Source of the DNA: Deltaproteobacteria bacterium RIFCSPHIGHO2_02_FULL_43_33
GTDB taxonomy: Bacteria > Desulfobacterota > GWC2-55-46 > UBA9637
Reading direction: 5' to 3'
Assembly (NCBI GenBank): GCA_001798165.1
Contig: MGRL01000069.1
Location: 1 to 55,658 of the forward strand
Length of the DNA: 55,658 bases
The notes under the pieces are model-generated. The model was not told where the DNA came from, made no database searches, and worked only from the letters and a program-made list of their open reading frames with translations. Shown here piece after piece: positions 1,961-54,381 of the stretch. Positions within the stretch are counted from its first letter, which is position 1. Each line of letters starts with the position of its first letter. Made by a program: the position numbers and the translations under genes.

Positions 1961-2036
1961 TTACAGGATATAGGCAATGGGCGAGAGATGATAGGAAAAC
2001 CTATAGCCTATTGCCCATAACCCCTTGCCTGTCTTT
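1961..2036. repeat. Head-to-head heptamer array (GGCWATR type)
   Basis: ACAGGATATAGGCAATGGGCG...CCTATAGCCTATTGCCCATAACCCCTTGCCTGTCTTT. Confidence 0.7.
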
Positions 2037-2037
2037 T

Positions 2038-2236
2038 ACCCAAAAAATGCAGTTGCATTTTTTGGCAAACGCAATCTTTGGCCAAATACTGCGTCATCCG
2101 CCAAAGGCGAACCGGCTGTCCAAATACTCACATACTTAAAACAGTATGCTCCGTTTTGTCCAGCCAGTTTTTCCTTGTCTTCGGCTCAAATCTTGCGTTT
2201 GCCCCGAAAAATAAAAACCAAATGCATTTTTCGGGT
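2038..2236. mobile_element. MITE family A, copy 1
   Basis: Terminal IR ACCCAAAAAATGCA...TGCATTTTTCGGGT; second copy at 7079-7264. Confidence 0.8.
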
Positions 2237-2983
2237 TTATCTATTTATTAAACTTGCCGCATACCCAGCCCCAAACCCGTTATCTATATTAACAACGGTA
2301 ACTCCGGCTGCGCATGAATTTAACATGGCCAGAAGTGTGGTAAGGCCGCCGAGGTTTGCGCCATAGCCAATACTGGTCGGGACAGCAATAACAGGTCTTG
2401 AAACAAGGCCGCCCACTACAGAGGGCAGCGCACCTTCCATGCCGGCAACAACAACAAGGACATTTGCTGCAAAAAGCTTTTCCTTCTTGTGAAGCAGTCT
2501 GTGAATACCCGCAACGCCGACATCGTAGAGCCTTTCCACCTTGTTGCCCATTGCCTCGGCTGTTACAGCAGCTTCTTCTGCCACAGGTGTATCTGAAGTT
2601 CCGGCGCAGATAACCAGAATAGCGCCTTTGCCGATTATTTCTATTGGATGGGATTTAATAAATATAGTATTTGCAATTTCATTATATGCCGCCTTGGGGA
2701 AAGCCCTTTTTATGGCTTTAGCCTTCGCCTCATCTACACGCGTTACAAGGATATTCTCTTTTCTCTCCTTCATTTTTTTTACTATGCCTGCAATTTGCGT
2801 AGAACTTTTCCCCTGGCCGAGTATAACCTCTGGAAATCCTTGCCGCAAGGAACGATGGGTGTCCAAAGTGGCAAAACCCATCTCCTCAAAAGGGAGCGTT
2901 TTTAATGCCTCCAACGCACCATGAGTGTCTACCTTCCCCCTTTTTATGTCAGTTATGAGTTTTTTTAATATTTCAATATTCAT
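2237..2983 (-). CDS. larB: Nickel pincer cofactor biosynthesis protein LarB (PurE-like fold)
   Basis: DTHRSLRQGFPEVI, AGTSD, DVGVAGIHRL, AGMEGAL, PVIAVPTSIGYG, VVNIDNGFGA. Confidence 0.92.
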   Translation of the reverse strand: MNIEILKKLITDIKRGKVDTHGALEALKTLPFEEMGFATLDTHRSLRQGFPEVILGQGKSSTQIAGIVKKMKERKENILVTRVDEAKAKAIKRAFPKAAYNEIANTIFIKSHPIEIIGKGAILVICAGTSDTPVAEEAAVTAEAMGNKVERLYDVGVAGIHRLLHKKEKLFAANVLVVVAGMEGALPSVVGGLVSRPVIAVPTSIGYGANLGGLTTLLAMLNSCAAGVTVVNIDNGFGAGYAASLINR

Positions 2984-2996
2984 ATGTTGGAAATGT

Positions 2997-3099
2997 TATA
3001 GCGAAAGCAATAAATAACTTGTAGGGCAAGCCTTTAGGCTTGCTTATTTGCAGGGCTAAAGCCCTGCCCTACGTCAAGTTATTTATTGCCGTTAGTATA
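2997..3099. repeat. GTAG-family REP doublet (REPIN-like) with outer IR, family C copy 1
   Basis: GCAATAAATAACTT-GTAGGGCAAGCC...GCCCTGCCCTAC-GTCAAGTTATTTATTGC; near-identical copy at 34204-34308. Confidence 0.85.
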
Positions 3100-3226
3100 G
3101 AGGTATGAGGTTTGAGGCCGAAAGATAAAGTTAGAGGTTGGAGGATAGAGGTTGGAGGCAAATGTTTCTGCCTCAAACCTCAGACCTCCAACTTCTTTTG
3201 CCTTTGTCCTCCTCCCTCCAACCTCA
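3098..3226. repeat. Head-to-head heptamer array (GAGGTTN / NAACCTC type)
   Basis: GAGGTAT GAGGTTT GAGG...GAGGTTG GAGGATA GAGGTTG GAGG followed by CCTCAAA CCTCAGA CCTCCAA. Confidence 0.8.
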
Positions 3227-4810
3227 AGCAATAAGCGCCGCAGGGTCAATCAAAAATACGGGTCTCCCATCTCCAAGCACAGTAACACCTATAATGCCAT
3301 GCATTCGTGTCATGGGCTGGGACAGCGGCCTTATGTATGCATCTATCTCACCTTCAAAATCATCAACCATTATCCCTGATAATTTATCCTTTACATCAAT
3401 GATAATGGTGGGAATAATATCTCTCTCTGCGATAGCCGGTATCCTCAAGGCGCCCCTCAAATCTACAAGCGGCACTTCTGCATCGTTATATATAAAATAA
3501 GGTTTAGGCCTGCCATTTTTTATTTCATTCTTATTTAAATCCATCACCTTCATCACCTTTGATATGGGCAAGGCAAAAAGCTCTTCGCCAAGAGACACCA
3601 AGAGGACTTTTATTATAGATATCGTTACGGGCAGCTCAAGAATAATCTTTGTGCCTTTGCTTGGATAAGAATCTATCTCCACCCTTCCGCCTATTGATTC
3701 AATGTTTCCTTTTACAACATCCATACCCACCCCCCTGCCTGATGTCTCTGTAACCTCTTTTGCCAGGCTTAACCCAGGTATGCAAACAAGCATGAGAAGC
3801 TCTTTGTCTGACATACCGTTTAATCTATCTTCAGGAAACCCGAATTTTTTAGCCTTTTCTTTTACTGTATTAATATCTATCCCTTTCCCATCATCTATTA
3901 TTTCTATTAATATATTGTCTCTTTGCCTGGCGACAGCAATAGTTATGCGCCCCTTTGAAGATTTGCCCACCCGCTGTCTCTCTTCCGGTGTTTCTATGCC
4001 ATGGTCAACAGCATTTCTTATAATATGGACAAGCGGGTCAGTTATGTGCTCCAACACAGCCCTGTCAAGCCTTACATCGCTGCCTTGTATTATCAACTCT
4101 ACATCCTTTCCTCCCTTTCTGCACATATCTCTTACTATACGCGGCAAATTCTGGGTCAGGTCTTCAAAGGGTATCATTCTGGCTGTTATAACTGCATGAT
4201 TGAGGCTTTCTATGGTCCTGCCGAGCAGATGCACAGCCTCCTGAAATTCCGCAGGATAAGAATGTGATGCAAGCTCCTTGAGGTGAGAGCCGACTGTAAA
4301 AAGCTCTCCTACGGTACCCATAAGATTATCAAAGACCTTACCCTCCACCTTCATGACCGTGGGAAGGCTGAGCTTTGCGGCAGAGATTGGAACTGAGGCC
4401 TGTTGTGAATTGCTTGAAGAAGTTTCCTTTTCCTCAGTTAAAATGGCCTTAACCCTTGAGAGTATTTGACCGGTATCAACATTAAGCGGCTTATCCTCTT
4501 CAATCATTTTTACAAATACCCGCAGGGTGTCTGAACCGTTGATAAACATATCTATAATTTGCTGGCTTAGGGCTATTCTTTTTTTTCTTACGGCATCCAA
4601 GACATCTTCCAGTTTATGGCTAAAGGACGCCAGATTTTCATACCCCATTGATGCTGCCATTCCCTTGATTGAGTGAAAATGCCTGAAGAGGTTATCTACG
4701 ATAGCAGTGTCATCAGGTTTTTGCTCCAAATGGAGCAATTCTGTGCTGATTCCCTGCAGATGTTCTTCTGTTTCTTGAAGGAAGAGCGCTTTATATTGGG
4801 ATGTGTCCAT
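3224..4810 (-). CDS. cheA: Chemotaxis histidine kinase CheA (DifE-like, no obvious P2 domain)
   Basis: Hpt LFRHFHSIKGMA; HIIRNAVDHGIE, DDGKGID, SGRGVGMDVV; C-terminal CheW domain. Confidence 0.93.
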   Translation of the reverse strand: MDTSQYKALFLQETEEHLQGISTELLHLEQKPDDTAIVDNLFRHFHSIKGMAASMGYENLASFSHKLEDVLDAVRKKRIALSQQIIDMFINGSDTLRVFVKMIEEDKPLNVDTGQILSRVKAILTEEKETSSSNSQQASVPISAAKLSLPTVMKVEGKVFDNLMGTVGELFTVGSHLKELASHSYPAEFQEAVHLLGRTIESLNHAVITARMIPFEDLTQNLPRIVRDMCRKGGKDVELIIQGSDVRLDRAVLEHITDPLVHIIRNAVDHGIETPEERQRVGKSSKGRITIAVARQRDNILIEIIDDGKGIDINTVKEKAKKFGFPEDRLNGMSDKELLMLVCIPGLSLAKEVTETSGRGVGMDVVKGNIESIGGRVEIDSYPSKGTKIILELPVTISIIKVLLVSLGEELFALPISKVMKVMDLNKNEIKNGRPKPYFIYNDAEVPLVDLRGALRIPAIAERDIIPTIIIDVKDKLSGIMVDDFEGEIDAYIRPLSQPMTRMHGIIGVTVLGDGRPVFLIDPAALIA

Positions 4811-4867
4811 AAAAAAAGATGGTAGGAAGCAGGCGCTATGCAGCAGGCAGTTACTGCATACTCCTCA

Positions 4868-5347
4868 CTACCTACTGCTTATTGCCTTCTGTATTTCTTC
4901 CATTATAGTCTGCCAGTCAAGCAGCCGTATCTTTTTCCCAGAGAGATCAATAAAGCCGAGGGTGTAATTTTCATTTGACGGCTTAAATTCAAGATTAGCA
5001 AGCTCTTCCTTCCAAAGGAAAGACAGCTCTCGTTTGCCAACATATATGCCGAGGGTTGCAGCATCCTTTTTGATAATTGCGATTTTATACGGCCTTTCTT
5101 CCTGAGCCGGCGGCAGCCCAAGTAAATTTTCAAGGCCAATTACAATTATAACCTCACCGCGCTGCGTTATAACCCCTTTAATAAGCCTCCGCTTTTCTGA
5201 AGGCAAGGCAGCATGAATAGATGGCAGGAGATGTAATCGGTTCGCCTCTACAATTCCAACTACCATATTTGCCTCTACAGCAAATGTTTCTCTGCCTATA
5301 TCCATAAGCAGTTTGTCATTTTCTTTAATGGCAGTTGGAAGAGTCAT
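4868..5347 (-). CDS. cheW: CheW-like coupling protein
   Basis: Lies between the MCP and CheA; IKGVITQRGEVIIVIGLENLLG resembles the CheW core; start placed at MTLPT. Confidence 0.7.
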   Translation of the reverse strand: MTLPTAIKENDKLLMDIGRETFAVEANMVVGIVEANRLHLLPSIHAALPSEKRRLIKGVITQRGEVIIVIGLENLLGLPPAQEERPYKIAIIKKDAATLGIYVGKRELSFLWKEELANLEFKPSNENYTLGFIDLSGKKIRLLDWQTIMEEIQKAISSR

Positions 5348-5368
5348 ACAGTCTTTTCTGTTAACGTT

Positions 5369-5451: not shown

Positions 5452-5461
5452 GCTGCTCTAT

Positions 5462-6790: not shown

Positions 6791-6934
6791 TCTGTTAGAC
6801 CTCCTTTCACCTCATTAGCATTAGAAGGTTCACCCGTGAGAAGCGCCATATTTCGGCAAGCAAATATTTTTGGACAATGGTGAGTTCTAACGGAGTTCAC
6901 GCCGCTTCTTTTGAGTTTTTTCCTTACCTATTAA

Positions 6935-7075
6935 CAGTTTGTTGAAAAACTCAACAAACTCCGATTACACGGATAAAAGATTAGATTTCACAGATTAAAA
7001 CCCATTGAAATATCTGTGTAATCGTTTTTCCTAATCTGTGTAATCAAGGCTGTTGATGCCTTTTTCAACAGCCTG
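6935..7075. mobile_element. MITE family B, copy 1 (141 bp, TTAA target duplication)
   Basis: CAGTTTGTTGAAAAA...TTTTTCAACAGCCTG ends with TTAA on both flanks; copies at 24846 and 30388. Confidence 0.9.
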
Positions 7076-7078
7076 TTA

Positions 7079-7264
7079 ACCCAAAAATGCAGTTGCATTT
7101 TTAGGCAACCGCAATATTTTGTCAAATACTGCGTCAAATCAGGCTGTCCAAATACTCACATACGTAAAGGAGTATGCTCCGTTTTGTCCAGCCTGCCTTT
7201 CCTTGTCTTTGAGCAAAATCTTGCGGTTGTCCCGAAAAATAAAAACCAAATGCATTTTTCGGGC
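7079..7264. mobile_element. MITE family A, copy 2
   Basis: Same ends and body as 2038-2236; abuts MITE B copy 1. Confidence 0.8.
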
Positions 7265-20875: not shown

Positions 20876-22306
20876 ATGCAACCCTTAAATAAAAATATTC
20901 ATGCAGTGATTCTGGCAGGAGGCACAGGCACACGATTCTGGCCATTGAGCAGAGAGAGGTCTCCAAAGCAGATGCTTAAGATTTTTGGCGAAGACACAAT
21001 GATAAGGCAGACCATAAAAAGGATTTGTGGTCTTGTGTCTGAGCAAAATATCTCTATTGTCACAAATGAAAGATTGGCATTTGATTTAAATCTTCATCTT
21101 GAGGGGATCAAAAGAAGAAAAGACGATTTTAAGATAATCGCTGAGTCAATTGGCAGAAACACGGCGCCGGCTATAGGCCTCGCAGCGGTTTATCTTAAGA
21201 AGAATAATCCTGATTCAATAATGGTTGTATTGTCTTCGGACCACAGCATCGGTAACGAAAAAGCATTTATTGATGTGCTGAAAAAAGCAATAAAGAGCGC
21301 TGAAAAGGGGAACCTTGTTACTCTTGGCGTAAAGCCAGTTCGACCGGAAACAGGATATGGGTATATAAAAGCAGGAGTCAGGAATCAGAAGTCAGGAATC
21401 AGGAAGGTTGAAAAGTTTACAGAAAAACCTGATATTAAAACTGCGCAGCGCTATTTAGAAAGCGGTAATTACTTCTGGAACAGCGGAATATTTGTATGGA
21501 AGGTCTCCGCAATCCTCGGAGAGATAAAAAAATATATGCCGCTGCTGTACAGCGGACTTTTAAAAATAGAAAAGGCGCTGGCCACAAAAAATGAAAGAAA
21601 GATTATAGAAGAAGTGTATTCGGAACTTGAAAGCCAATCCATTGACTACGGCGTCCTTGAAAAGAGCAACAAGGTAATGGTTGCGCCCGCTGACATCGGG
21701 TGGTGTGATGTAGGCAGTTGGACAGCCCTTGATGATGTGCTTCCGCATGATGATAACGGCAATATAATCAAGGGAAATGTTGTAGATATAGCAAGCAAAG
21801 ATTCTATAATATTTTCCAGTGATAGGCTTGTTGCGACTATAGGTTTGAAAAATATGGTCATAGTCGATACCCCGGACGCCACGCTTGTGTGTGAAAAGCA
21901 TAGGGCGCAGGATGTTAAAAAAATTGTCGACGAGTTGAAAAGACGCGGCAAGGAAGAACATCTTATCCACAAGACGGTGGAAAGGCCGTGGGGGGCATAT
22001 ACGGTGCTTGAATGCGGTGACCGATATAAAATAAAAAGACTGGCTATAAAACCGGGCGGAAGGCTGAGTATGCAACTGCATCGCCACAGGAGCGAACACT
22101 GGGTTGTTGTCTCAGGCACAGCCCGCGTTACAAAAGACACAGAGGTTTATGATGTGCATCCGAATGAGAGCACCTATATTCCCATGTCGACAAAACACAG
22201 GCTTGAGAATATCGGCAAAGTCCTTCTGCAGATTATAGAGGTTCAGAATGGCGAATATCTCGGCGAGGATGATATAGAGAGGATAGACGATGATTACAAC
22301 CGTTAA
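20876..22306 (+). CDS. manC: Mannose-1-phosphate guanylyltransferase / mannose-6-phosphate isomerase
   Basis: ILAGGTGTRFWPLSR, FTEKP, WNSGIF, SIDYGVLEK; cupin tail RPWG...HRHRSEHW. Confidence 0.95.
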   Translation: MQPLNKNIHAVILAGGTGTRFWPLSRERSPKQMLKIFGEDTMIRQTIKRICGLVSEQNISIVTNERLAFDLNLHLEGIKRRKDDFKIIAESIGRNTAPAIGLAAVYLKKNNPDSIMVVLSSDHSIGNEKAFIDVLKKAIKSAEKGNLVTLGVKPVRPETGYGYIKAGVRNQKSGIRKVEKFTEKPDIKTAQRYLESGNYFWNSGIFVWKVSAILGEIKKYMPLLYSGLLKIEKALATKNERKIIEEVYSELESQSIDYGVLEKSNKVMVAPADIGWCDVGSWTALDDVLPHDDNGNIIKGNVVDIASKDSIIFSSDRLVATIGLKNMVIVDTPDATLVCEKHRAQDVKKIVDELKRRGKEEHLIHKTVERPWGAYTVLECGDRYKIKRLAIKPGGRLSMQLHRHRSEHWVVVSGTARVTKDTEVYDVHPNESTYIPMSTKHRLENIGKVLLQIIEVQNGEYLGEDDIERIDDDYNR

Positions 22307-23759
22307 TCCAGGGATATTTCGCCAATACGACATCCGTGGCATTTTTAATAAAGACTTAACACCGCAAGCGGCTTATGCAATTGGCGCAGCATATGGAGCA
22401 TACCTTTTACGACTCAAAGGGTCAAAAGGGTTGAGGGTTAGTGTCGGCAGAGATGTAAGATTAAGCTCCCCTATCTTAAGAGATGCTTTAATAGAAGGAA
22501 TACTTTCAACAGGTATTGATGTTATAGATATTGGCGAATGTCCAACGCCCCTTCAGTATTTCTCTTTATTTCACTTGAATCTTGACGGTGGCATCATGAT
22601 AACCGGCAGCCATAATCCGCCGGAATTTAATGGATTTAAAATCAGCATCGGCCAGGAAACCATATACGGGCAGGCAATTCAGGAGTTGAGAAGGATAGTG
22701 GAAAGCAAGGGTCAGGAGTCAGGAGCCATAAGTCAGGAAAAAAAGGGGAAAATAGAATATTATAATATTGTTCCGGTGTATATTGATTACCTTAAGAAGC
22801 AGTTTTCAAAATACCCGCCGTCAAATAAACCTGCCGTTAAAGTTGTTGTTGATGCAGGAAACGGAACGGCAGGCCGTATGGCGCCGAAACTTTTGAGGGA
22901 GTTAGGTTGTGAAGTTGTTGAGCTTTTTTGCGACCCCAACGGCAACTTCCCCAATCATCACCCTGACCCCACTATCCCTGAAAATTTAAATGATTTAATA
23001 GCGGCAGTAAAAATACACAAAGCGGATTTCGGTATTGCTTATGACGGCGATGCAGACAGGATAGGTATTGTTGACGAAAAGGGGAAGATTGCCTGGGGAG
23101 ATCAGCTCCTGATAATATTTGCAAGAGATATACTTAAAAACTCAAAGCTCATCCCCTATAGCTTCAATCGGGGACAAAACTCAAAACCGACCTTTATCGG
23201 TGAGGTAAAATGCTCACAGGTTATGTATGATGAAATCAATAGGCTCGGCGGTAATGCCATTATGTGGAAAACAGGGCATTCTCTTATAAAATCAAAGATG
23301 AAAGAAACAGGCTCCGTCCTGGCGGGAGAGATGAGCGGACATATATTTTTTGCAGACAGATATTTCGGCTATGACGACGCAATTTACGCATCATGCCGAT
23401 TGGTGGAGATCCTTTCCGCGGAGCGGTTGCGCATTCCAAATGCCCCATTTTCCAGCCTCCTTTCCGGTTTGCCGGAAACCTATACAACTCCCGAAATAAG
23501 GGTTGATTGTCCTGATGAAGAGAAGTTTAAAGTGATTGACAGGCTATCTGAGGTTGTCAGTCAGGAAGATATGGGGATCAGGGGCATAATCAGGATTGAC
23601 GGCCTTAGATTAGTATTTGATAATGGGTGGGCGCTCATTCGGGCCAGCAACACACAACCTATTCTTGTTCTCAGGTTTGAAGCGACAACTGAAGAGGGGC
23701 TTGGGCAGATAAAAGAATCTGTGGAGAAAAAATTAAAGCAAGCGCTTTATCAAAAATAG
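22290..23759 (+). CDS. algC: Phosphomannomutase/phosphoglucomutase (AlgC/ManB type)
   Basis: FRQYDIRG, TGSHNP, DGDADR, GEMSGH, RASNTQP. Confidence 0.92.
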   Translation: MITTVNPGIFRQYDIRGIFNKDLTPQAAYAIGAAYGAYLLRLKGSKGLRVSVGRDVRLSSPILRDALIEGILSTGIDVIDIGECPTPLQYFSLFHLNLDGGIMITGSHNPPEFNGFKISIGQETIYGQAIQELRRIVESKGQESGAISQEKKGKIEYYNIVPVYIDYLKKQFSKYPPSNKPAVKVVVDAGNGTAGRMAPKLLRELGCEVVELFCDPNGNFPNHHPDPTIPENLNDLIAAVKIHKADFGIAYDGDADRIGIVDEKGKIAWGDQLLIIFARDILKNSKLIPYSFNRGQNSKPTFIGEVKCSQVMYDEINRLGGNAIMWKTGHSLIKSKMKETGSVLAGEMSGHIFFADRYFGYDDAIYASCRLVEILSAERLRIPNAPFSSLLSGLPETYTTPEIRVDCPDEEKFKVIDRLSEVVSQEDMGIRGIIRIDGLRLVFDNGWALIRASNTQPILVLRFEATTEEGLGQIKESVEKKLKQALYQK

Positions 23760-24845: not shown

Positions 24846-24986
24846 CAGATTGTTGAAAAACTCAACAATCTCTGATTACACAGAGAAAAGATTAGATTAC
24901 ACAGATTGAAACTCCTTGAAATATCCGTGTAATCATCTTTTATAATCTGTGTAATCAAGGCTGTTGATGACTTTTTCAACAGCCTG
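24846..24986. mobile_element. MITE family B, copy 2 (diverged, CTAA target duplication)
   Basis: 141 bp with the same ends; CTAA at 24842-24845 and 24987-24990. Confidence 0.88.
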
Positions 24987-28007: not shown

Positions 28008-28070
28008 AAACAGGTTAAGGTCAAGATTGAGGCTGAGGATTTCTAAACCTTAACCTTAGCCTCAACCTTA
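28008..28070. repeat. Head-to-head hexamer array (GGTTRA / TYAACC type)
   Basis: ACAGGTTAA GGTCAA GATTGA GGCTGA GG...AACCTT AACCTT AGCCTC AACCTT. Confidence 0.75.
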
Positions 28071-30366: not shown

Positions 30367-30615
30367 TAATACAAACGCAATAATTAACAGTTTGTTGAAA
30401 AACTCAACAAACTCCGATTACACGGATAAAAGATTAGATTTCACAGATTAAAACCCATTGAAATATCTGTGTAATCGTTTTTCCTAATCTGTGTAATCAA
30501 GGCTGTTGATGCCTTTTTCAACAGCCTGTTAATTTGTAGGGCAAGCCTTCATGCTTGCTTATTTTGCAGGGCTAAAGCCCTGCCCTACGTCAATTTATTT
30601 AATTCGTCTGTATTA
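30367..30615. repeat. REPIN-like family C copy interrupted by MITE B
   Basis: Outer IR TAATACAAACG...CGTCTGTATTA; GTAGGGCAAGCC...GCCCTGCCCTAC core. Confidence 0.75.
30388..30528. mobile_element. MITE family B, copy 3 (TTAA target duplication)
   Basis: Appears identical to 6935-7075 by eye. Confidence 0.9.
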
Positions 30616-30738
30616 GTAACCGGCAGACGGCAGACAAGAAAAGATTCAAATGCAGCAGCATTGGTGTTTCGATATATTTTTATTGCATATTCCCGATTTT
30701 TTATGATAGGATAAGCAACGAATTAAATAATGTTACAT

Positions 30739-30788
30739 GTAGGGCGAGGCTTTAGCCTTGCTTAAGCAACCCTAAAGGGTTGCCCTAC
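30739..30788. repeat. GTAG-family REP doublet (core only)
   Basis: GTAGGGCGAGGCTTTAGCCTTGC-TTAA-GCAACCCTAAAGGGTTGCCCTAC. Confidence 0.8.
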
Positions 30789-30797
30789 TTGATTTTT

Positions 30798-31418: not shown

Positions 31419-31499
31419 ATAAATACAGACTATGGGCGATAGGCAATAGGCTATGGGTAAAGAGGACGATATATAAATACAGGCAATGGGCTATGGGCA

Positions 31500-31898
31500 A
31501 TGGGTAGAAAAGGCTTTAAAGATTTGATTGTCTGGCAAAAGGCTAAAGACCTCGCAGTTGCTATTTATAAACTGAGTGGAGGAGGAGATTTGGGGCGTGA
31601 TTTTGGCTTACGAGATCAAATTAGACGCAGCGCTGTAAGCATTGCCGGTAATCTGGCTGAAGGAGATGAACGAGATACCGACAAAGAGGCAGTTCATTCT
31701 TTCTATATTGCGAAAGGTTCCCTTGCTGAATTACAGAGCCAGATTCTAATTGCTTATGAGATTGGATATCTTAAAAAAGAGGTTTATGAGAATATTAGCG
31801 CAGATTACAGTGAATTGGGCAAAGTGATTGGTAAACTCATAAAATACAGGCGAGGGGCTATGAAGGCAGGCAATAGGCAAGAGGCGATAGGGCTATGA
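31500..31898 (+). CDS. Four helix bundle protein (23S rRNA IVP / bAvd-like family)
   Basis: FKDLIVWQKA, FGLRDQIRRSAVSIAGNLAEG, IAKGSLAEL; flanked by GGCWATR heptamer arrays. Confidence 0.9.
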   Translation: MGRKGFKDLIVWQKAKDLAVAIYKLSGGGDLGRDFGLRDQIRRSAVSIAGNLAEGDERDTDKEAVHSFYIAKGSLAELQSQILIAYEIGYLKKEVYENISADYSELGKVIGKLIKYRRGAMKAGNRQEAIGL

Positions 31899-31956
31899 GT
31901 TTTCCTATCGCCTATCGCCTGTATTTTTATATTCTTAATCTTTTTTAATTTTTTTC

Positions 31957-33420: not shown

Positions 33421-34182
33421 ATGTCATTGCAAGGAACTTTAGTTCCGAAGCAATCTGAAAAAGGGGGAAGGGAAACCTTCCCCCTTTTTTTCTTTATAGC
33501 CATCCTCGTTTCCTTTGTTTCCTTTCAAAGAAATATCGCATGGGATGAGGAATTGAGCATATGGCAGGATGCGGTTCGTAAGTCCTCTCATAAGGCAAGA
33601 CCACATAGCAACCTTGGCGCGGCCTTTGGAGGTAAAAGGCTTTTTCATGAGGGGGCAAGAGAATCCCGCATCGCCATATACCTGAACCCGTATCTTGCAG
33701 AGGCGCATAACAATCTTGGGAATATATATCTGGAGATGGGGTTGGCGCAGGATGCCTTGAAGGAGTTTCAAGATGCCGTTGAATTAGAGCCGTCGTTTGC
33801 AGTTGCCCATTACAATGCAGGGCTTGCATATAAGGCCATTGGCCTCATGGAAGAGGCTCAAAAGGAGTTTAAGAAGGCAGTTGAAATAAGGCCGTTCTAT
33901 GCAAAGGCCCATAATGAACTTGGCATGCAATATATGACAAATGGCATGTATGAGGCTGCTGTAACGGAATATAACAAGGCGCTGGAAGGCGATAATAGGT
34001 TTGCCCCAACGTATAATAACCGCGGGGTAGTTTATGCGCGGTTAGGCATGTGGGACAATGCCATCAAAGAGTTTCAAAAGGCCATGAGCATAGACCCTGC
34101 ATTAACCGAAGTAGAGAAAAACCTGAAAAAGGCGTATGCCAATAGAGAGGCGGCTGTCAGGAAGGCCGTAAAAAACCCTTGA
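33421..34182 (+). CDS. TM + TPR protein (TMTC C-terminal-half type) 2; start uncertain
   Basis: RNIAWDEELSIWQDAVRKSSHKARPHSNLG followed by TPRs. Confidence 0.78.
   Translation: MSLQGTLVPKQSEKGGRETFPLFFFIAILVSFVSFQRNIAWDEELSIWQDAVRKSSHKARPHSNLGAAFGGKRLFHEGARESRIAIYLNPYLAEAHNNLGNIYLEMGLAQDALKEFQDAVELEPSFAVAHYNAGLAYKAIGLMEEAQKEFKKAVEIRPFYAKAHNELGMQYMTNGMYEAAVTEYNKALEGDNRFAPTYNNRGVVYARLGMWDNAIKEFQKAMSIDPALTEVEKNLKKAYANREAAVRKAVKNP
33458..33491 (+). terminator. Intrinsic terminator after the cytochrome gene
   Basis: AAAAAGGGGGAAGG-GAAA-CCTTCCCCCTTTTTTT. Confidence 0.8.
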
Positions 34183-34203: not shown

Positions 34204-34308
34204 TATACTGAAAGCAATAAATAACTTGTAGGGCAACCCTTTAGGGTTGCTTATTTATGCAGGGCTAAAGCCCTGCCCTACGGCAAGTTATTTATTGCCG
34301 TTACTATA
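34204..34308. repeat. REPIN-like family C copy
   Basis: Near-identical to 2997-3099. Confidence 0.85.
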
Positions 34309-37109: not shown

Positions 37110-37700
37110 ATGCCTTTAAAATCCGAGCTGTTCTTTTTTGCCGCAGTAGGTATTATTTTTTCTATTGTCACATTTCAGAAAAATGTTTTATGGGGAAGCG
37201 AAAAAGGCCTATGGCTGGATATTCTGCAAAAATCACCATCCAAGGCGCGGCCGCACACTAATCTTGGCATGGCCTATGACCTTGATGGCAATATAGCCAA
37301 GGCAGAAGATGAGTATAACAAGGCTATACAATTAGAGCCTGATTATCTTGCCGCATATGCTCCTTTGGCAGTTATGTATGGAAAAAGAGGAGATGTGGAT
37401 AGAGCTATTGAGATGTTTTTGTGGCTTATACCAAGATTGCCTAATCGGGACCCCAAGGCACATACAGGTTTGGGGGTTGCTTACATGATAAAGGGGCTTT
37501 TGAAAGATGCAGAAAGGGAATTTCAGGAGGCATTAAAGATAGATCCAAATTATGAGATAGCACACTACAATCTCGCTGAGATTTATGGGCAGATGGGTTT
37601 AAAGGATGAGGCATTAAAGCATTATAAAATATTTATTGAAAATGCGCCGCCTGCGCAAAAGGAACTGGTTATAAAAATAAAAACAAACTATGGGTTATAG
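37110..37700 (+). CDS. TM + TPR protein (TMTC C-terminal-half type) 5
   Basis: KNVLWGSEKGLWLDILQKSPSKARPHTNLG followed by TPRs. Confidence 0.82.
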   Translation: MPLKSELFFFAAVGIIFSIVTFQKNVLWGSEKGLWLDILQKSPSKARPHTNLGMAYDLDGNIAKAEDEYNKAIQLEPDYLAAYAPLAVMYGKRGDVDRAIEMFLWLIPRLPNRDPKAHTGLGVAYMIKGLLKDAEREFQEALKIDPNYEIAHYNLAEIYGQMGLKDEALKHYKIFIENAPPAQKELVIKIKTNYGL

Positions 37701-37729
37701 GCAATGGCGCCTATTGCCTGTCTTTTTAT

Positions 37730-38101: not shown

Positions 38102-38199
38102 AATTATAAATATAGGTTGAGGTTAAGGGTGATACAGGTTAAGGAAGACCTCAACCTGTATTTTCTTTCCCCTCAACCTTAACATGCTTTTACTTAACC

Positions 38200-38568
38200 T
38201 TAACCTGTCTTTTTATGCATGAAAGTTATTAGCATATTAATTTCTTTCCAGATGCAAGATATCAGCCCTTCCACATCCTCATACTCAACTTGATTAAAGT
38301 AACCCACTCTTTGTCCGTAAATCAAGTGGCTCTTAGCCTCGGCTAATGAGGCTCGCGAATCGTAGTAAAAATTCAATTTGTCTTTTGTATGTTTTCTGCC
38401 AAAACCTTCGGCAATATTACCGGGGATTGAAAGGGCTGCGCGTCTTATCTGAGAGGTGAGGCCATAATCTTCCTTTCTCGGTAATGTCTCTGTAAGCTTG
38501 AAAATTTTAACAGCCAGTTCCATGGCCATTTGCCAAACAGGCATATCTTCAAAAGAATTGTAGCTCAT
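38200..38568 (-). CDS. Four helix bundle protein (23S rRNA IVP / bAvd-like family)
   Basis: FEDMPVWQ, LPRKEDYGLTSQIRRAALSIPGNIAEGFGR, SRASLAE; flanked by GGTTRA hexamer arrays. Confidence 0.9.
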   Translation of the reverse strand: MSYNSFEDMPVWQMAMELAVKIFKLTETLPRKEDYGLTSQIRRAALSIPGNIAEGFGRKHTKDKLNFYYDSRASLAEAKSHLIYGQRVGYFNQVEYEDVEGLISCIWKEINMLITFMHKKTG

Positions 38569-38610
38569 TAACCTGCCTTTTCCCTCAACCTCAACCTTAA
38601 CCTCTATTTA

Positions 38611-41949: not shown

Positions 41950-42105
41950 AATACCGTTGTCCGTGTCCGTGAACCGTGTCCGTTTTATAAGACCGTTTCC
42001 CGTGCTCGTTGTCCGTGTCCGTTTTAAGACTTTTTTTACGGTCACGGTTTACGGTCACGAATCACGGTTTTTCTACGGTCACGGAAAACGGTCACGAATC
42101 ACGGC
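41950..42105. repeat. Head-to-head CCGTG-type 6-7 bp array
   Basis: CCGTTGT CCGTGT CCGTGAA CCGTGT...ACGGTC ACGGTTT ACGGTC ACGAATC ACGG. Confidence 0.82.
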
Positions 42106-42689
42106 TTTTTATTAAACTTATTCATCGCCTTTTCAATGCCATTTTTCACAATAACTTCCACAGCCTCTTTTACCGTCTTCAATGTCTGCCGCAACAAATC
42201 TTTCTCATCGGCCTGAAACGGGCTCAACACATAATCCGCAACATCTTCTTGACCCTTGACCCTTGACCCTTGACCCTGTTTTCCAGGTCTTCCTATCCCC
42301 AATCTTATCCTCGGAAAATCATTCGTGCCAAGCTGTTCAATAATTGATTCCATGCCTCTGTGGCCGCCGCTGCTGCCGCTTAACCTTATTCTTAGAGAGC
42401 CAAATTCAAGGTCAATATCATCATAGATAACCAGAATATCTTTCGGCTCTATATGGAAATAATCGGAAATGCCTTGAACAGCCTCGCCGCTTAGGTTCAT
42501 AAATGTCTGCGGCTTTAACAAAACTACTTCTTTACCGGCAATGTGCCCCTTTGCCCAAACGCTTTGAAAACCTCTCTTGTTCAGCTTTACGACATTGGCC
42601 TCTGCCAAAGAGTCAACTGCCATAAAGCCTATATTATGCCGCGTGTCTTTGTATTTTGTCCCGGGATTGCCGAGTCCGACGATTAACAT
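42099..42689 (-). CDS. pth: Peptidyl-tRNA hydrolase
   Basis: IVGLGNPG..Y..TRHNIGF, KPQTFMNLSG, GGHRG, RIRLGIGRP. Confidence 0.96.
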   Translation of the reverse strand: MLIVGLGNPGTKYKDTRHNIGFMAVDSLAEANVVKLNKRGFQSVWAKGHIAGKEVVLLKPQTFMNLSGEAVQGISDYFHIEPKDILVIYDDIDLEFGSLRIRLSGSSGGHRGMESIIEQLGTNDFPRIRLGIGRPGKQGQGSRVKGQEDVADYVLSPFQADEKDLLRQTLKTVKEAVEVIVKNGIEKAMNKFNKKP

Positions 42690-42691: not shown

Positions 42692-42771
42692 AAATACCGT
42701 GTTCCGTGTCCGTGAATCGTGTCCGTGTAAAAAGTCTTTAACGGTCACGGGCAACGGACACGATTCACGGC
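42692..42771. repeat. Head-to-head CCGTG-type array
   Basis: AAATAC-CGTGTT CCGTGT CCGTGAA TCGTGT CCGTG...ACGGTC ACGGGCA ACGGAC ACGATTC ACGG. Confidence 0.8.
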
Positions 42772-42773
42772 TA

Positions 42774-43478
42774 TTATTTCTTCTTCTCTTCTTTTTCAGT
42801 TGGCGCTGCCTTTTTCTCTTCCTTTTCACCGGGCTTCTTCTCTTCTTCTTTTACCTCAAAGCTCTTGGCTATCTCTGCCTTTGCCTCTTCAGCGGTCTTT
42901 ACCTCAACCTCAGCTGTTGGGGCTGTGACGAGGGCAACAGTTATATTCGGATCGCCTACTACCTTTAAACCTTGCGGCAAAGTAATATCCTTGACATGTA
43001 GAGAATGCCCTATGGCAAGAGGAGTAACATCAACATCAATCTTATCCGGTATCTGATTTGGCAGGCACTCTACTTTTAATGTCCTTGCCTCGTGCTGCAA
43101 TATGCCGCCGAGCGCAACGCCTTGAGCCTTGCCGGTAAAATGAACGGGCACGTCCACGATTATTTTGTGGTCCATCATCAGCTCATAGAGGTCAATATGA
43201 ATGATATCTCTTTTCAACGGGTCCCTTTGGAAGCCTCTGAACATCACTGTCCGGGCCTTCTTTTTGTCGCCTTCTATCTTTAAAGTGACCAGGACATTGC
43301 TCTTTGCCTCTGTAGCAAGGGCTTTACTCAAATCTACTGTCTTAACAACCAAAGGTGTTGTCTCTTTAGATGCTGGACCGTAAAGAATGCAGGGTATAAG
43401 TCCTTCTCTTCTTAATTTTTTGGCTGCCCCTTTTCCAAGACCCGTCCTCTGTTGGGCTGTTAATTCTATCTGTTCCAT
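42774..43478 (-). CDS. rplY: 50S ribosomal protein L25 / general stress protein Ctc
   Basis: GKGAAKKLRREGLIPCILYG, QRDP..HID, Ctc-type C-domain; prs-rplY-pth synteny. Confidence 0.95.
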   Translation of the reverse strand: MEQIELTAQQRTGLGKGAAKKLRREGLIPCILYGPASKETTPLVVKTVDLSKALATEAKSNVLVTLKIEGDKKKARTVMFRGFQRDPLKRDIIHIDLYELMMDHKIIVDVPVHFTGKAQGVALGGILQHEARTLKVECLPNQIPDKIDVDVTPLAIGHSLHVKDITLPQGLKVVGDPNITVALVTAPTAEVEVKTAEEAKAEIAKSFEVKEEEKKPGEKEEKKAAPTEKEEKKK

Positions 43479-43491: not shown

Positions 43492-43545
43492 AAATACAGG
43501 CTATGGGCTATAGGCTATGGGGTTTACCCATTGCCTCTTGCCTGT
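43492..43545. repeat. Head-to-head GGCWATR heptamer array
   Basis: AAATACA GGCTATG GGCTATA GGCTATG GGG...CCCATTG CCTCTTG CCTGT. Confidence 0.8.
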
Positions 43546-43550
43546 TATAA

Positions 43551-44496: not shown

Positions 44497-44576
44497 AAAA
44501 CCGTAAGTCGTAAGTCGTGAATCGTAAGTTGCAAAGATTTTCATTAACTACTTACGACTCACCATTTACGGTCTTT
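44497..44576. repeat. Head-to-head CGTAAGT heptamer array
   Basis: CGTAAGT CGTAAGT CGTGAAT CGTAAGT...ACTTACG ACTCACC ATTTACG-GTCTTT. Confidence 0.8.
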
Positions 44577-44652: not shown

Positions 44653-44656
44653 AAAA

Positions 44657-44750
44657 ACCGTGATTCGTGACCGGGATCCGTGACCGTAAGAACAAAAAAT
44701 CCAGAAATATTTTTCACGGTCACGGACAACGGACACGGTTGACGGTATTT
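44657..44750. repeat. Head-to-head CCGTG-type array
   Basis: CCGTGAT TCGTGA CCGGGAT CCGTGA CCGT...ACGGTC ACGGACA ACGGAC ACGGTTG ACG-GTATTT. Confidence 0.8.
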
Positions 44751-51577: not shown

Positions 51578-51821
51578 AATAGTCCTCATCTTTCATGAGC
51601 CAGATATGGCCAATGAATTTAGAGACAAAAATAAGCAATACGCATGATATAAACCCATAAAGGGCGCTCCAGCCCGGTATCTTATCCCAAAAAAACTCAA
51701 CGTGCTCGCGATGAACAAGAAAATCTGCGATGACAATAATTGCAAGCGTAATGTAAAGGAGCCTCCAGCGTGTTTTAGCGTTTTGAGAGTCGCCGAAAAA
51801 AAGTACAATTCGTTTTATCAT
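51570..51821 (-). CDS. Small two-TM protein between the Mrp-like subunits
   Basis: Two TM helices; WDKIPGWSALYGFISC...EDYYD; overlaps the next start codon. Confidence 0.75.
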   Translation of the reverse strand: MIKRIVLFFGDSQNAKTRWRLLYITLAIIVIADFLVHREHVEFFWDKIPGWSALYGFISCVLLIFVSKFIGHIWLMKDEDYYD

Positions 51822-51856
51822 CCGCTACCCCCTTTGTTACTTGATTAAGCTGCCAC

Positions 51857-53344: not shown

Positions 53345-53348
53345 ATAT

Positions 53349-53414
53349 CCGTTGTCCGTGTCCGTTGTCCGTGTCCGTGTTTTTCACGGTTCACGGTCAC
53401 GGAACACGGTCTTT
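53349..53414. repeat. Head-to-head CCGTG-type array
   Basis: CCGTTGT CCGTGT CCGTTGT CCGTGT CCGTG...CACGGTT CACGGT CACGGAA CACG-GTCTTT. Confidence 0.82.
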
Positions 53415-53416
53415 CG

Positions 53417-53719
53417 CTATCCTCTCATCGTTGTAATTTCATCTACATTCACCGTAGCCCTGTTCCTTACAAGGGCGACTAATATGCTTAAGGCAACAGC
53501 CGCCTCAGCAGCAGCAACAGTAATGACGAATACAGAAAACATCTGGCCGCGGATATCCTGTAAATAATAAGAAAAGGCCACAAGGTTGATATTCACAGAA
53601 TTTAATATAAGCTCTATGGACATTAAAATAATAAGAAAGTTTCTGCGCAAAAGCACACCGGCAACGCCTATGATAAAAAGCGTAGAGCTTAGGATAATAT
53701 ACCATGACAAAGGAATCAT
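53417..53719 (-). CDS. nuoK: NADH-quinone oxidoreductase subunit K
   Basis: [31 protein letters not shown]. Confidence 0.95.
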
Positions 53720-53740
53720 AAGTCGCTTCGCTCCATTTTG

Positions 53741-53810
53741 GATTTACGGTTTGCGATTTTCGGTTGTCTAATTTAAAAATCGTAAATCGTAATTCGTAAT
53801 TCGTAAATCA
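53741..53810. repeat. Head-to-head ATCGTAA heptamer array
   Basis: GATTTAC GGTTTGC GATTTTC GG...AATCGTA AATCGTA ATTCGTA ATTCGTA AATC. Confidence 0.75.
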
Positions 53811-53813
53811 TTT

Positions 53814-54311
53814 TTACTTTATATCCTTTCTTCCCATCACGATAGCGCCCACCAAAGCCACAAGGAGTATTACTGAGACAATCTCGAATGGCAGGAGATA
53901 GGTTGTAAACATGGCCTTGCCTATCTCTGCAACGCTCCCGTTCAAATTGGTTGGCGCTAAAGACATACCCGTTAGTCTGCTGCCGGTAAGCGCAAATAGT
54001 ATCTCCAGTATAAGCGCTATGAGAAACACTATTACCCAGAATTGCCCAGCCGGCATAAAACTTTTAATAGCCGCATGTCGTATATCCAGCATCATGATGA
54101 CAAAGAGGAAGAGAACCATCACAGCGCCTACATAGATAAATATCTGGACAACAGCAAGAAACGGAGACCTGAGAAGAATAAATATTGCCGCCACCTGAAA
54201 AAAACATACTATCAGGGAGATGGCGCTGTGCACAGGATTTCGCAGCGAGACAACCCCTATTGCTGATATGATCGCTATTATTGCGAACATTAAGAAGAAT
54301 AGTTTTTCCAT
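53814..54311 (-). CDS. nuoJ: NADH-quinone oxidoreductase subunit J
   Basis: RNPVHSA, QIFIYVGAVMVLFLFVIMML, YLLPFE. Confidence 0.95.
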   Translation of the reverse strand: MEKLFFLMFAIIAIISAIGVVSLRNPVHSAISLIVCFFQVAAIFILLRSPFLAVVQIFIYVGAVMVLFLFVIMMLDIRHAAIKSFMPAGQFWVIVFLIALILEILFALTGSRLTGMSLAPTNLNGSVAEIGKAMFTTYLLPFEIVSVILLVALVGAIVMGRKDIK

Positions 54312-54315
54312 AAAT

Positions 54316-54381
54316 TAGCTCGTGGCTCATAGCTCATGGCTCATAGTTTTTGCTATCAGCTATGAGCTATCAGCTGTCTTT
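54316..54381. repeat. Head-to-head GCTCATA / TATGAGC heptamer array
   Basis: AGCTCGT GGCTCAT AGCTCAT GGCTCAT AG...GCTATCA GCTATGA GCTATCA GCT-GTCTTT. Confidence 0.8.

What the first reader, a model, noticed from the sequence alone, without database searches (positions are those of the whole stretch)
1961..54381. Dispersed head-to-head 6-7 bp arrays of different units share one boundary motif
Seen: over a dozen short arrays, each a run of a unit followed by a run of its reverse complement (so hairpin-forming), at gene junctions. Units differ: GGCWATR, GAGGTTN, GGTTRA, CCGTG(T), CGTAAGT, ATCGTAA, GCTCATA. Yet many begin with AAATAC (31421, 31475, 31842, 42692, 43492) and/or end with GT(A/C)TTT (2031, 31921, 37720, 38158, 38207, 44571, 44745, 53409, 54376). 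Replication slippage would not explain a shared end on unrelated units. Inference: one mechanism (templated repeat addition or a non-classical mobile element) creates or moves them at a defined sequence.
Basis: partly seen in the sequence, partly recalled or inferred. Interest (0 to 1): 0.8.

Follow-up and report, generated by a model that had tools for sequence, protein, structure and literature searches.

The report
Shared end-cap on heptamer-repeat hairpins
The short repeat hairpins that fill the gaps between genes in this uncultured groundwater bacterium really do share one 7-base end motif whatever their repeat word, which argues against simple copying slippage but gives no sign of a reverse transcriptase or a classical jumping element.

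Summary
Observation confirmed. All 14 cited coordinates hold AAATAC or GT(A/C)TTT directly against an array. Genome-wide, AAANAC abuts the outer end of 65 of 266 paired arrays, against 0.32% per intergenic position and 7 of 108 solo arrays. The motif is a 7-nt cap, (T)AAANAC, shared by at least four word families. It is as frequent next to stops as next to starts. It recurs in 12 of 13 genomes of the order and, thinly, across the phylum.

Interpretation partly supported. Slippage fits badly: arms hold 3-5 words and neighbouring words are no more alike than distant ones. But no reverse transcriptase was found. There are no target-site duplications and few near-identical copies. The two ends carry the cap independently, and the two arms of a hairpin match no better than arms from different loci.

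The objects are the heptamer-array, IVS-like hairpins that this scan has already noted on other DNA (550 notes, at least 484 genomes) and in this genome. The cap, and the independence of the arms, are the new parts. How the arms arise remains inferred.

The parts
1961..2036 (.). GGCWATR-family hairpin ending in GTCTTT (2031-2036); read on the minus strand it starts AAAGAC-AGGCAAG
   Evidence: (z -3.4)
3095..3225 (.). Compound GAGGTTN-family hairpins
28023..28070 (.). GGYTRA-family hairpin
31421..31463 (+). Cap AAATAC plus a lone arm of GGCWATR words
31475..31504 (+). Cap AAATAC plus an arm of GGCWATR words that runs into the start codon of the PF05635 gene
31500..31898 (+). PF05635 (23S rRNA intervening-sequence protein, four-helix bundle) gene enclosed by GGCWATR arms; its C-terminal tail is encoded by the repeat words
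   Evidence: (E 2.8e-33)
31842..31926 (.). Complete hairpin: AAATAC, GGCWATR words, T-run loop, complementary words, GTATTT
   Evidence: (z -5.1)
37697..37725 (.). Short GGCAAT hairpin followed by GTCTTT; the only hairpin of this class that the terminator scan flagged
38105..38215 (.). Nested GGTTRA hairpins, with GTATTT at 38158 and GTCTTT at 38207, downstream of the second PF05635 gene
38200..38568 (-). Second PF05635 gene, enclosed by GGTTRA arms (the upstream arm is 38583-38604)
   Evidence: (E 3.5e-34)
41954..42104 (.). Double CCGTG-family hairpin between pth and the H+-pyrophosphatase gene
42692..42770 (.). AAATAC plus a CCGTG-family hairpin between the L25 gene and pth
   Evidence: (z -5.2)
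43492..43549 (.). AAATAC plus a GGCTATG hairpin between prs and the L25 gene; on the minus strand it ends GTATTTTA just before GGAGGT and the ATG
   Evidence: (z -3.3)
44498..44576 (.). CGTAAGT-family hairpin ending in GTCTTT (44571-44576), between tRNA-Gln and prs; the minus-strand flank AGAAAGAC is shared with relative G001
   Evidence: (z -5.5)
44653..44750 (.). CCGTG-family hairpin ending in GTATTT (44745-44750), between ispE and tRNA-Gln; on the minus strand the TAA of TAAATAC is the ispE stop codon
53348..53414 (.). CCGTG-family hairpin ending in GTCTTT, between nuoK and nuoL
   Evidence: (z -5.4)
53737..53809 (.). GATTTAC/AATTACG hairpin between nuoJ and nuoK; this junction is empty in relatives G005 and G011
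   Evidence: z -2.0
54316..54381 (.). GCTCATA-family hairpin ending in GTCTTT, between nuoI and nuoJ; this junction is empty in G011
   Evidence: (z -5.4)

Best explanation
What it is. The arrays are the arms of a lineage-wide class of intergenic hairpins. Each arm holds 3-5 degenerate 6-7-nt words. These are the 'heptamer-array' or IVS-like hairpins. They fill the space between a stop codon and the next ribosome-binding site, even inside operons. The same arms enclose the genome's PF05635 genes.

The module. The unit of construction is the single arm, not the hairpin. An arm is a 7-nt cap (T)AAANAC in register, then words of one family with fixed and free positions, then an A/T run. Two arms of one family face each other.

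How I think it works. I read the cap as a DNA-level end signal: the fixed point at which arms are set down or exchanged. The process would treat both strands alike and leave no target duplication. Its logic would be that of REP/RAYT or IS200/IS605 elements, where a nuclease acts at a short motif beside a hairpin. The transcribed hairpin would serve as an intercistronic RNA stem of the RNase III type, as in 23S rRNA intervening sequences.

Shown: the cap, its fixed position, its strand symmetry, its spread over word families and genomes, the independence of arms and ends, and the exchange of word families at orthologous junctions.

Inferred: that an enzyme uses the cap, and the RNA role.
For: - Position and enrichment. 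AAANAC abuts 65 of 266 paired arrays, against 0.0032 per intergenic position. There is a sharp offset peak: 47 outer edges against 1 inner edge.
- Shared by word families. RGGYNRK 51 of 202 arrays, CGTK 14 of 76, AATTANG 7 of 96; GGYTRA shows the same logo shifted by one base. The logo is T47 A76 A94 A N A C, with nothing conserved further out.
- Strand symmetry. 37 of 163 ends next to stops, 24 of 111 next to starts, 12 of 45 with no gene close by. An RNA signal on one side of the hairpin would not predict this.
- No target duplication, as expected for HUH-type single-strand nucleases.
- Exchange at fixed junctions. The same orthologous gap holds different word families in G000, G001, G002, G005 and G011, or is empty. 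The flank is kept in three cases: AGAAAGAC after tRNA-Gln in G000 and G001; TAG-AAAAGAC / TAAAGAC / AAGAC at nuoI-J; TAG(CG)AAAGAC at nuoK-L in G000 and G011.
- Conservation. Cap plus three RGGYNRK words occurs in 12 of 13 genomes of the order, 2-77 hits each and 0 for the reversed pattern. Cap plus four RGG heptads of other word families gives 56 hits in 24 of 150 other genomes of the phylum, against 11 for the reversed control.
- Not slippage.
- RNA stems are plausible. In the Coxiella IVS, RNase III cuts at the start of the first heptamer repeat (passages read in PMC4990558).
Against: - No enzyme is tied to the hairpins. The four Y1 transposase genes are flanked by GTAG-type REPs or by 30-36-nt direct repeats.
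- Copies are not near-identical, as recent mobile copies would be: best hits are about 80-85%.
- Only about a quarter of ends carry the exact cap and about 40% carry AC. The two ends of a hairpin carry it independently: 47 left, 46 right, 19 both of 113, odds ratio 0.98. One-sided insertion would predict a negative link.
- There is no bias between the stop side and the start side, a proxy for strand of replication or transcription. IS200/IS605-type insertion would predict a bias.
- The genome shows no excess of abutting AAANAC-GTNTTT 'empty sites': 82 against 90 for the reversed order.
- In small samples of relatives' loci the cap was no more frequent at outer than at inner edges: 5 of 23 against 6 of 23, and 1 of 17 against 3 of 17.
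- The kept flanks at orthologous junctions are only three cases and could be convergent.
Confidence: 0.35

Rival explanations
1. The cap is an RNA-level flank. The hairpins would be intercistronic processing, stability or weak termination stems. Selection would keep A-rich and U-rich single strands, plus two closing pairs (AC/GU), at their base. That would leave the stop codon and the ribosome-binding site unpaired, or supply a U-tract.
For: - The hairpins sit a median 6 nt after stops and 15 nt before starts.
- GTATTTTA is followed by GGAGGT and the ATG at the L25 gene.
- The RNA folds are strong.
- IVS stems are RNase III substrates, cut at the first heptamer repeat in Coxiella (passages read in PMC4990558).
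- In some cases the TAA of TAAANAC is the real stop codon, as for ispE.
Against: - The motif is equally frequent, as a reverse complement, on the stop side and the start side (22.7% and 21.6%), though the two sides have different RNA roles.
- The two ends are independent and N does not covary.
- The flanks do not extend the stem beyond chance: 0.69 pairs against 0.79 +- 0.11.
- Only 1 hairpin of this class in 18.7 kb fits a terminator pattern, and terminator-like sites are not enriched: 21 against 18.0 +- 4.4.
- The genome's ordinary terminators have GC-rich stems set directly in A/T runs, without AC.
Confidence: 0.25
2. The arms are arrays of protein-binding sites on DNA or RNA, with one word family per binding protein and two arrays facing each other. 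Aklujkar et al. guessed this for the paired tandem-repeat sites of Geobacter metallireducens. The cap would be a common nucleation or end site. The binding proteins could be the PF05635 (Avd-like) paralogues whose genes sit inside such hairpins.
For: - Words have fixed and free positions. For RGGYNRK, positions 2 and 3 are invariant by construction of the search pattern; among the degenerate positions, 6 matches between arms in 94.5% of cells and 5 in 38.5%.
- Arms are held to 3-5 words.
- The two arms are independent draws from one family.
- The nine PF05635 genes are flanked by eight different word families.
- PF05635 genes across the phylum keep inverted arrays at their flanks.
- Geobacter 'paired sites' are described in print (passages read in PMC2700814).
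Against: - No binding was tested.
- Abundant families (CCGTG, GATTTAC, AATTACG) have no PF05635 gene in this assembly.
- It is hard to see why nearly every gene junction, including those inside the nuo operon, would need a regulator site.
- It does not explain why junctions swap families between relatives.
Confidence: 0.15
3. One reading: a reverse transcriptase or telomerase-like enzyme adds repeats from a template, starting at the motif.
For: - Each arm has a polarity: cap, then words, then decay into an A-run. The last words are often AGGTAAA or AGGCAAA.
- Words are degenerate at fixed positions.
- PF05635 proteins belong to the same family as the Avd partner of DGR reverse transcriptases (recalled, not tested here).
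Against: - No PF00078 match in the genome, which is 93.9% complete.
- Arms stop at 3-5 words.
- The same cap precedes many unrelated words, which one template cannot give.
Confidence: 0.05
4. The motif is a by-product of AT-rich spacers around the arrays and of how array edges were called.
For: - Flanks and loops are A/T-rich in general.
- AAANAC is common in the genome, at 4827 copies.
- Three quarters of the ends lack the exact motif.
Against: - About 77-fold excess at one fixed position: 24.4% against 0.32%.
- C at -1 in 49-59% of ends, against about 17% expected.
- Inner edges and solo arrays serve as internal controls.
- The reversed-pattern controls give 0 hits in the order and 11 against 56 in the phylum.
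Confidence: 0.03

Closest known systems
23S rRNA intervening sequences carrying an S23p/PF05635 ORF (Coxiella, Leptospira; PMC4990558, passages read)
   Same: A PF05635 gene lies between complementary ends that form a long stem. The Coxiella IVS has tandem heptamer repeats before the ORF, and RNase III cuts at the first repeat. Here 8 of 9 PF05635 genes have repeat arms on both sides; the ninth is cut by a contig end.
   Different: These cassettes lie between protein genes, not in rRNA. Most hairpins hold no gene. Arms are degenerate word arrays of many families. The shared (T)AAANAC cap is not mentioned in the passages I read.
Paired tandem-repeat 'global regulator sites' and four-heptanucleotide elements of Geobacter metallireducens (PMC2700814, passages read; its supplementary PDFs were not seen)
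   Same: Three to five tandem 7-9-nt repeats, mostly in pairs on opposite strands, at many intergenic places.
   Different: Those were read as regulator sites. No common end motif across classes appears in the passages I read. Here the hairpins occupy most junctions, including those inside operons.
GGGAATC heptamer repeats of Xanthomonas, with 70-75 convergent pairs (Rehm et al. 2015, PMC4692102, passages read)
   Same: Intergenic heptamer arrays lying close to ORF ends, often as convergent pairs able to form stem-loops.
   Different: One G-quadruplex-prone word and arrays of up to 14 units, kept at the same junctions between species. Here there are many words, 3-5 units per arm, families swapped between relatives, and a shared cap.
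REP/REPIN elements with RAYT transposases, including GTAG- and CGTC-tagged palindromes (PMC3116915 passages read; PMC3733652 seen as a search listing and abstract only)
   Same: Short intergenic hairpins with a short conserved tag at the foot of the stem and no target duplication. This is the working analogy for the cap.
   Different: The tag here is AAANAC, not GTAG or CGTC. Copies are only about 80% alike. This genome's RAYT-like gene on contig C82 is flanked by separate GTAG REPs.
Cyanobacterial STRR and Beggiatoaceae TAACTGA heptamer direct repeats (PMC4679880, passages read)
   Same: 7-nt words in short tandem sets, mostly intergenic and ending a few bases from start codons, in phylogenetically scattered lineages.
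   Different: Those are mainly direct repeats of one word (one inverted set of 170 in the BOGUAY genome). Here inverted pairs of many words dominate.

Membership tests
Heptanucleotide simple-sequence repeats made by slippage (STRR-like) | Tandem units of 7 nt in excess over other periods | tested here: met
   Period 7 gives 727 of 2029 TRF rows; period 14 gives 175.
Heptanucleotide simple-sequence repeats made by slippage (STRR-like) | Slippage signature: neighbouring units most alike, and an open-ended length distribution | tested here: not met
   Adjacent words are identical in 18.5% of pairs, non-adjacent words of the same arm in 20.9%. Arms hold 3 words (87), 4 (93), 5 (21) or 6 (1).
IVS-type cassette (PF05635 ORF inside a long stem) | PF05635 ORF flanked by complementary ends | tested here: met
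   There are 9 PF05635 matches. Eight have repeat arms upstream and reverse-complement arms downstream; one is cut by a contig end. The same layout appears in most of the 29 loci from other genomes of the phylum, judged by eye.
IVS-type cassette (PF05635 ORF inside a long stem) | Inserted in helix 25 or 45 of 23S rRNA | tested here: not met
   The two cassettes in the window lie between protein-coding genes.
IVS-type cassette (PF05635 ORF inside a long stem) | Excision of the stem by RNase III | not testable with these tools
   No RNA run holds the stretch.
REP/REPIN with RAYT | Conserved GTAG or CGTC tag at the foot of the hairpin | tested here: not met
   The tag is (T)AAANAC. GTAG REPs exist in this genome as a separate family.
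REP/REPIN with RAYT | Y1 (RAYT) gene flanked by the repeats it moves | tested here: not met
   There are 4 PF01797 matches. The copy on C82 is flanked by GTAGGGCAGGGC-type REPs and the others by longer direct repeats; none is flanked by heptamer hairpins.
MITE or classical transposon | Target-site duplication | tested here: not met
   Shared direct 5-mers in 13 of 113 hairpins against 12.9 +- 3.3 in shuffled pairs; 6-mers in 4 against 3.8 +- 1.8.
MITE or classical transposon | Families of near-identical copies | tested here: not met
   9 of 105 hairpins have a best hit of >=90% identity over >=80% of their length; typical best hits are 80-85%.
Intrinsic terminator | GC-rich stem followed by at least 5 T in 8 | tested here: not met
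   One hairpin of this class (37697-37721) is flagged. The region gives 21 sites against 18.0 +- 4.4 in shuffles.
Retroelement-templated repeats (DGR, telomerase-like) | A reverse transcriptase gene in the genome | tested here: not met
   No PF00078 match; the genome is 93.9% complete.
Integron attC sites | RYYYAAC / GTTRRRY boxes at the ends of an imperfect hairpin, next to an integron integrase | not tested
   Considered only as an architectural analogy. The flanked genes are housekeeping genes in conserved order.
Geobacter-type paired tandem-repeat sites | 3-5 tandem 7-9-nt repeats in pairs on opposite strands | tested here: met
   213 left and 219 right arms have a reverse-complement partner within 110 nt. 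Arms hold 3-5 words.

The most novel reading that the evidence does not exclude
Each arm is written or installed by a dedicated DNA-level machinery that starts at (T)AAANAC and lays down 3-5 degenerate words. The word family would be set by a cognate PF05635 (Avd-like) protein whose gene sits in the loop of a hairpin of its own family. That would be a repeat-writing or repeat-exchanging system without a reverse transcriptase, active across a whole bacterial phylum.
Probability: 0.12. Interest if true: 0.85.

Novelty: new variant of a known kind. Interest (0 to 1): 0.5.

Why it matters
Heptamer repeats and paired heptamer arrays have been reported from Geobacter, Xanthomonas, cyanobacteria and Beggiatoaceae without an explanation. 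This scan has met them in hundreds of genomes.

A common cap in register with the words narrows the possible origins, together with three further results:
- the two arms of a hairpin are independent draws from one word family;
- there is no slippage signature;
- there is no target duplication.

Plain microsatellite slippage, fold-back copying followed by maintenance of the stem, and classical transposition all fit badly.

The cap also gives a concrete handle. It can be mutated in reporter constructs, used as bait for binding proteins, and used to map breakpoints once closer strains are available.

I did not find the cap described in print. I read passages of PMC4679880, PMC2700814, PMC4692102 and PMC4990558. 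Elhai et al. 2008 was not held, and the supplementary PDFs of PMC2700814 could not be seen.

Tried and rejected
- **Empty sites.** I looked for abutting AAANAC-GTNTTT pairs. There are 82 at 0-9 nt spacing, against 90 for the reversed order, and only a slight excess at 40-80 nt. No support.
- **Small samples from relatives.** In 27 loci of the class, AAANAC was at 5 of 23 outer and 6 of 23 inner edges. In 29 PF05635 loci of the phylum it was at 1 of 17 and 3 of 17. These samples are too small; the pattern counts replace them.
- **First target-duplication script.** It was faulty: its string comparison was not incremental. I redid it. Only the stem-extension figure is used.
- **PF05635 alignment as a query.** I used the genome search with the Pfam family instead.
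- **Public runs.** No RNA holder is listed. Contigs of 4 DNA runs were laid.
  - Contigs join 42694 to 42775 in 4 of 4 runs and 41955 to 42107 in 2 of 4 runs. These joints skip exactly two hairpins.
  - The shorter side is only 20-25 letters and the letters between are unknown. They may come from other organisms that carry the same repeats, so I count them as a hint, not as evidence.
  - No 7-nt step indels were among the rows shown.
- **Promoter reading of TAAANAC.** Nothing is conserved upstream of -8. Dropped.
- **Cap as a decayed terminal word.** For RGGYNRK it shares only the free position 5 and the A at position 6, and the same cap precedes unrelated words. Not adopted.
- **Elhai et al. 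2008.** The paper could not be read.

Full report
**1.
The five AAATAC sites are followed at once by an array. The nine GT(A/C)TTT sites follow an array at once (sequence).
- The arrays pair head-to-head and fold. Seven of eight junction hairpins folded as RNA have z-scores from -3.3 to -5.5 against dinucleotide shuffles. The eighth (53730-53815) has z -2.0.
- The window is contig C69 of a 2.19-Mb, 126-contig genome. Across the genome, period 7 dominates the tandem repeats, with 727 of 2029 TRF rows and 220 canonical words.
- I merged the TRF rows into 1118 arms. Of these, 213 left and 219 right arms have a reverse-complement partner within 110 nt, and 667 have none.

**2. The end motif is far above chance and fixed in position.**
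- Within 17 nt of TRF-defined edges, AAAKAC is found at 12.0% of 432 outer edges. It is found at 2.1% of inner edges, 2.8% of solo edges and 1.5% of 20000 random intergenic windows. For AAANAC the figures are 19.2, 8.8, 6.9 and 4.2%.
- AAANAC ends exactly at the TRF edge in 47 outer edges, against 1 inner edge.
- With arrays defined by word patterns, AAANAC abuts 65 of 266 paired arrays and 7 of 108 solo arrays. The rate per intergenic position is 0.0032. 'AC' alone abuts 105 of 266, against 0.047.
- By family the counts are: RGGYNRK 51 of 202, CGTK 14 of 76, AATTANG 7 of 96. GGYTRA shows the same logo one base further out. GATTTNC, GAGGTNN, CAGRANT and AGAGTCA do not show it at the phase I used.
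- Among 119 ends that carry A.AC, the logo is T 47%, A 76%, A 94%, A, N (T 37%), A, C. Nothing is conserved beyond -8. The cap is therefore seven bases, the length of a word.

**3. Gene signals do not explain it.**
- The cap is as frequent at ends next to a stop codon (37 of 163) as at ends next to a start (24 of 111) or with no gene nearby (12 of 45). It is rarer inside ORFs (11 of 107). Gene calls are my own crude ORF picks.
- The hairpins lie a median 6 nt after stops and 15 nt before starts.
- Sometimes the TAA of the cap is the real stop codon, as for ispE. That cannot account for the start-side ends.
- Terminator-like sites are not enriched, and only one hairpin of this class is flagged. 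The genome's ordinary terminators look different.

**4. The arm, not the hairpin, is the module.**
- In 113 pattern-defined hairpins, AC is on the left in 47, GT on the right in 46, and both in 19, where 19.1 are expected. The odds ratio is 0.98. The N of the two caps does not covary. TRF-defined pairs give the same picture: 26 left, 21 right and 6 both, of 115.
- The flanks do not prolong the stem: 0.69 pairs against 0.79 +- 0.11.
- In 46 RGGYNRK hairpins, the two arms of one hairpin match at 80.3% of positions. Arms taken from different loci match at 80.8%. At the free position 5 the values are 38.5% and 45.9%. Pairing rests only on the fixed positions of the word family. I see no compensatory change and no trace of recent fold-back copying.
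- Arms hold 3, 4, 5 or 6 words (87, 93, 21 and 1 arrays). Neighbouring words are not more alike than distant words of the same arm (18.5% against 20.9% identical; 6.3% after shuffling across arrays, a figure inflated by sub-families). This is not what slippage gives.

**5. There are no marks of a classical mobile element and no reverse transcriptase.**
- Direct repeats between the two flanks are at chance. For k=5 the count is 13 against 12.9 +- 3.3. For k=4 it is 50 against 41.5 +- 4.8.
- Best hits between hairpins at different loci are mostly 80-85% identical. Nine of 105 reach 90% over 80% of their length, and some of these are contig-end duplicates.
- PF00078 has no match in this 93.9%-complete genome.
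- PF01797 has four matches, one of them at 55259-55588 with an in-frame TGA. Their flanks are GTAG-type REPs or longer direct repeats.

**6. Junctions turn over between relatives.**
- I compared thirteen consecutive junctions, nuoI to the second PF05635 gene, with G001 (same genus), G002 and G005 (same family) and G011 (same order). Coding DNA is 70-87% identical over the long matches.
- The same gap holds hairpins of different word families, another kind of inverted repeat, or nothing. For example, nuoJ-K is 97 nt in G000 and 107 nt in G002 with other words, but 2 nt in G005 and G011.
- At three junctions the outer flank is kept while the words differ:
  - AGAAAGAC after tRNA-Gln in G000 (CGTAAGT words) and G001 (AGTGAAC words);
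  - TAG-AAAAGAC, TAAAGAC and AAGAC at nuoI-J in G000, G005 and G002;
  - TAG-CGAAAGAC and TAG-AAAGAC at nuoK-L in G000 and G011.
- Three cases are suggestive, not proof.

**7. The cap is older than this genome.**
- Cap plus three RGGYNRK words occurs in G000 and in 11 of the 12 other genomes of its order. The ratio to all three-word windows runs from 4% to 21%: G000 50 of 269, G005 77 of 461, G011 31 of 226, G010 0 of 26.
- The reversed control pattern has no hit. The 18 other genomes of the class have no cap hit and 0-5 such arrays each. Among the rows listed, N was A, G or T.
- A looser pattern, cap plus four RGG heptads, hits 24 of 150 other genomes of the phylum. That is 56 hits against 11 for the reversed control. 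The words include AGGTATA, AGGGGTC, AGGGACC and AGGTCAT.

**8. What the objects are.**
- All nine PF05635 genes of the genome lie next to such arrays. Eight have arms on both sides and one is cut by a contig end. They carry eight different word families.
- PF05635 is present in 90 of 151 sampled genomes of the phylum. In most of the 29 loci fetched from other genomes it again sits between inverted arrays, judged by eye.
- This is the IVS-like heptamer-hairpin class already noted by this scan on other DNA (550 notes in at least 484 genomes) and in two other pieces of this genome.
- In print, the nearest things are:
  - the Coxiella IVS, with heptamer repeats and an RNase III cut at the first repeat;
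  - the paired tandem-repeat sites of Geobacter metallireducens;
  - the convergent GGGAATC pairs of Xanthomonas;
  - TAACTGA and STRR repeats.

**9. Reading.**
- The evidence does not support a reverse transcriptase or a classical transposon.
- I favour (0.35) a DNA-level end signal at which arms are set or exchanged, by a process that treats both strands alike and leaves no duplication. The transcribed hairpin would act as an intercistronic stem.
- The main rivals are an RNA-flank function (0.25) and protein-binding arrays (0.15).
- Against my reading: no enzyme is identified, copies are degenerate, and the two ends show neither exclusivity nor strand bias.

**10. Limits.**
- No relative is closer than about 87% in coding DNA.
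- Only G000 could be analysed as a whole genome.
- Word families were defined by my own patterns.
- The contig-level read layout was too noisy to use.

Noticed in passing
window 3007-3089, 30536-30588, 30736-30791, 34214-34298: A separate repeat family: pairs of GTAG-tagged palindromes (GTAGGGCAAGCC...GGCTTGC / GCAGGGC...GCCCTGCCCTAC), some nested inside a 15-nt inverted repeat (GCAATAAATAACTTG). The same REPs flank a Y1 (RAYT-like) gene on contig C82.
   Followed up: partly
window 6931-7079, 24851-24981, 30382-30534; also L002 (G002), nuoK-nuoL junction: A roughly 150-nt composite inverted-repeat element with GATTACACAGATT cores and TTGTTGAAAAAC ends. There are three copies in the window. A relative carries it at a junction where G000 has a heptamer hairpin.
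   Followed up: no
window 55259-55588 (-): A PF01797 (Y1 transposase) match with one in-frame TGA. An N-run lies just beyond the end of the window on the same contig.
   Followed up: partly
window 53722-53736 (-): A 15-nt motif, ATGGAGCGARGCGAC, lies between the nuoJ-K hairpin and the nuoK start. It is also present at the same junction in G002. The genome holds 9 copies allowing one mismatch, against 0 for the reversed control. It contains GCGAAGC.
   Followed up: partly
window 21372-21405, 22711-22738, 42248-42277: Heptamer arrays inside ORFs: a mannose-1-phosphate guanylyltransferase-type gene, a phosphomannomutase-type gene, and four perfect CTTGACC units inside pth.
   Followed up: no
window 31500-31898 and 38200-38568; G000 contigs C78, C103, C75, C11, C118, C4: The nine PF05635 genes are flanked by eight different word families (GGCWATR, GGTTRA twice, CGTAAGT, GTRAGGC, CAGTGRT, AGAAATG, GAGGTNG, AATTTCT). 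Several of these families are rare in the genome. The abundant CCGTG, GATTTAC and AATTACG families have no such gene in this assembly.
   Followed up: partly
window 42694-42775 and 41955-42107: Metagenome contigs join across exactly these two hairpins, in 4 of 4 and 2 of 4 runs. The shorter side is only 20-25 letters. They could be hairpin-free variants or chimeric joins through shared repeats.
   Followed up: no
window 33458-33489: An ordinary two-way terminator (AAAAAGGGGGAAGG gaaa CCTTCCCCCTTTTT). It shows that this genome also uses short GC-rich terminators, distinct from the repeat hairpins.
   Followed up: no
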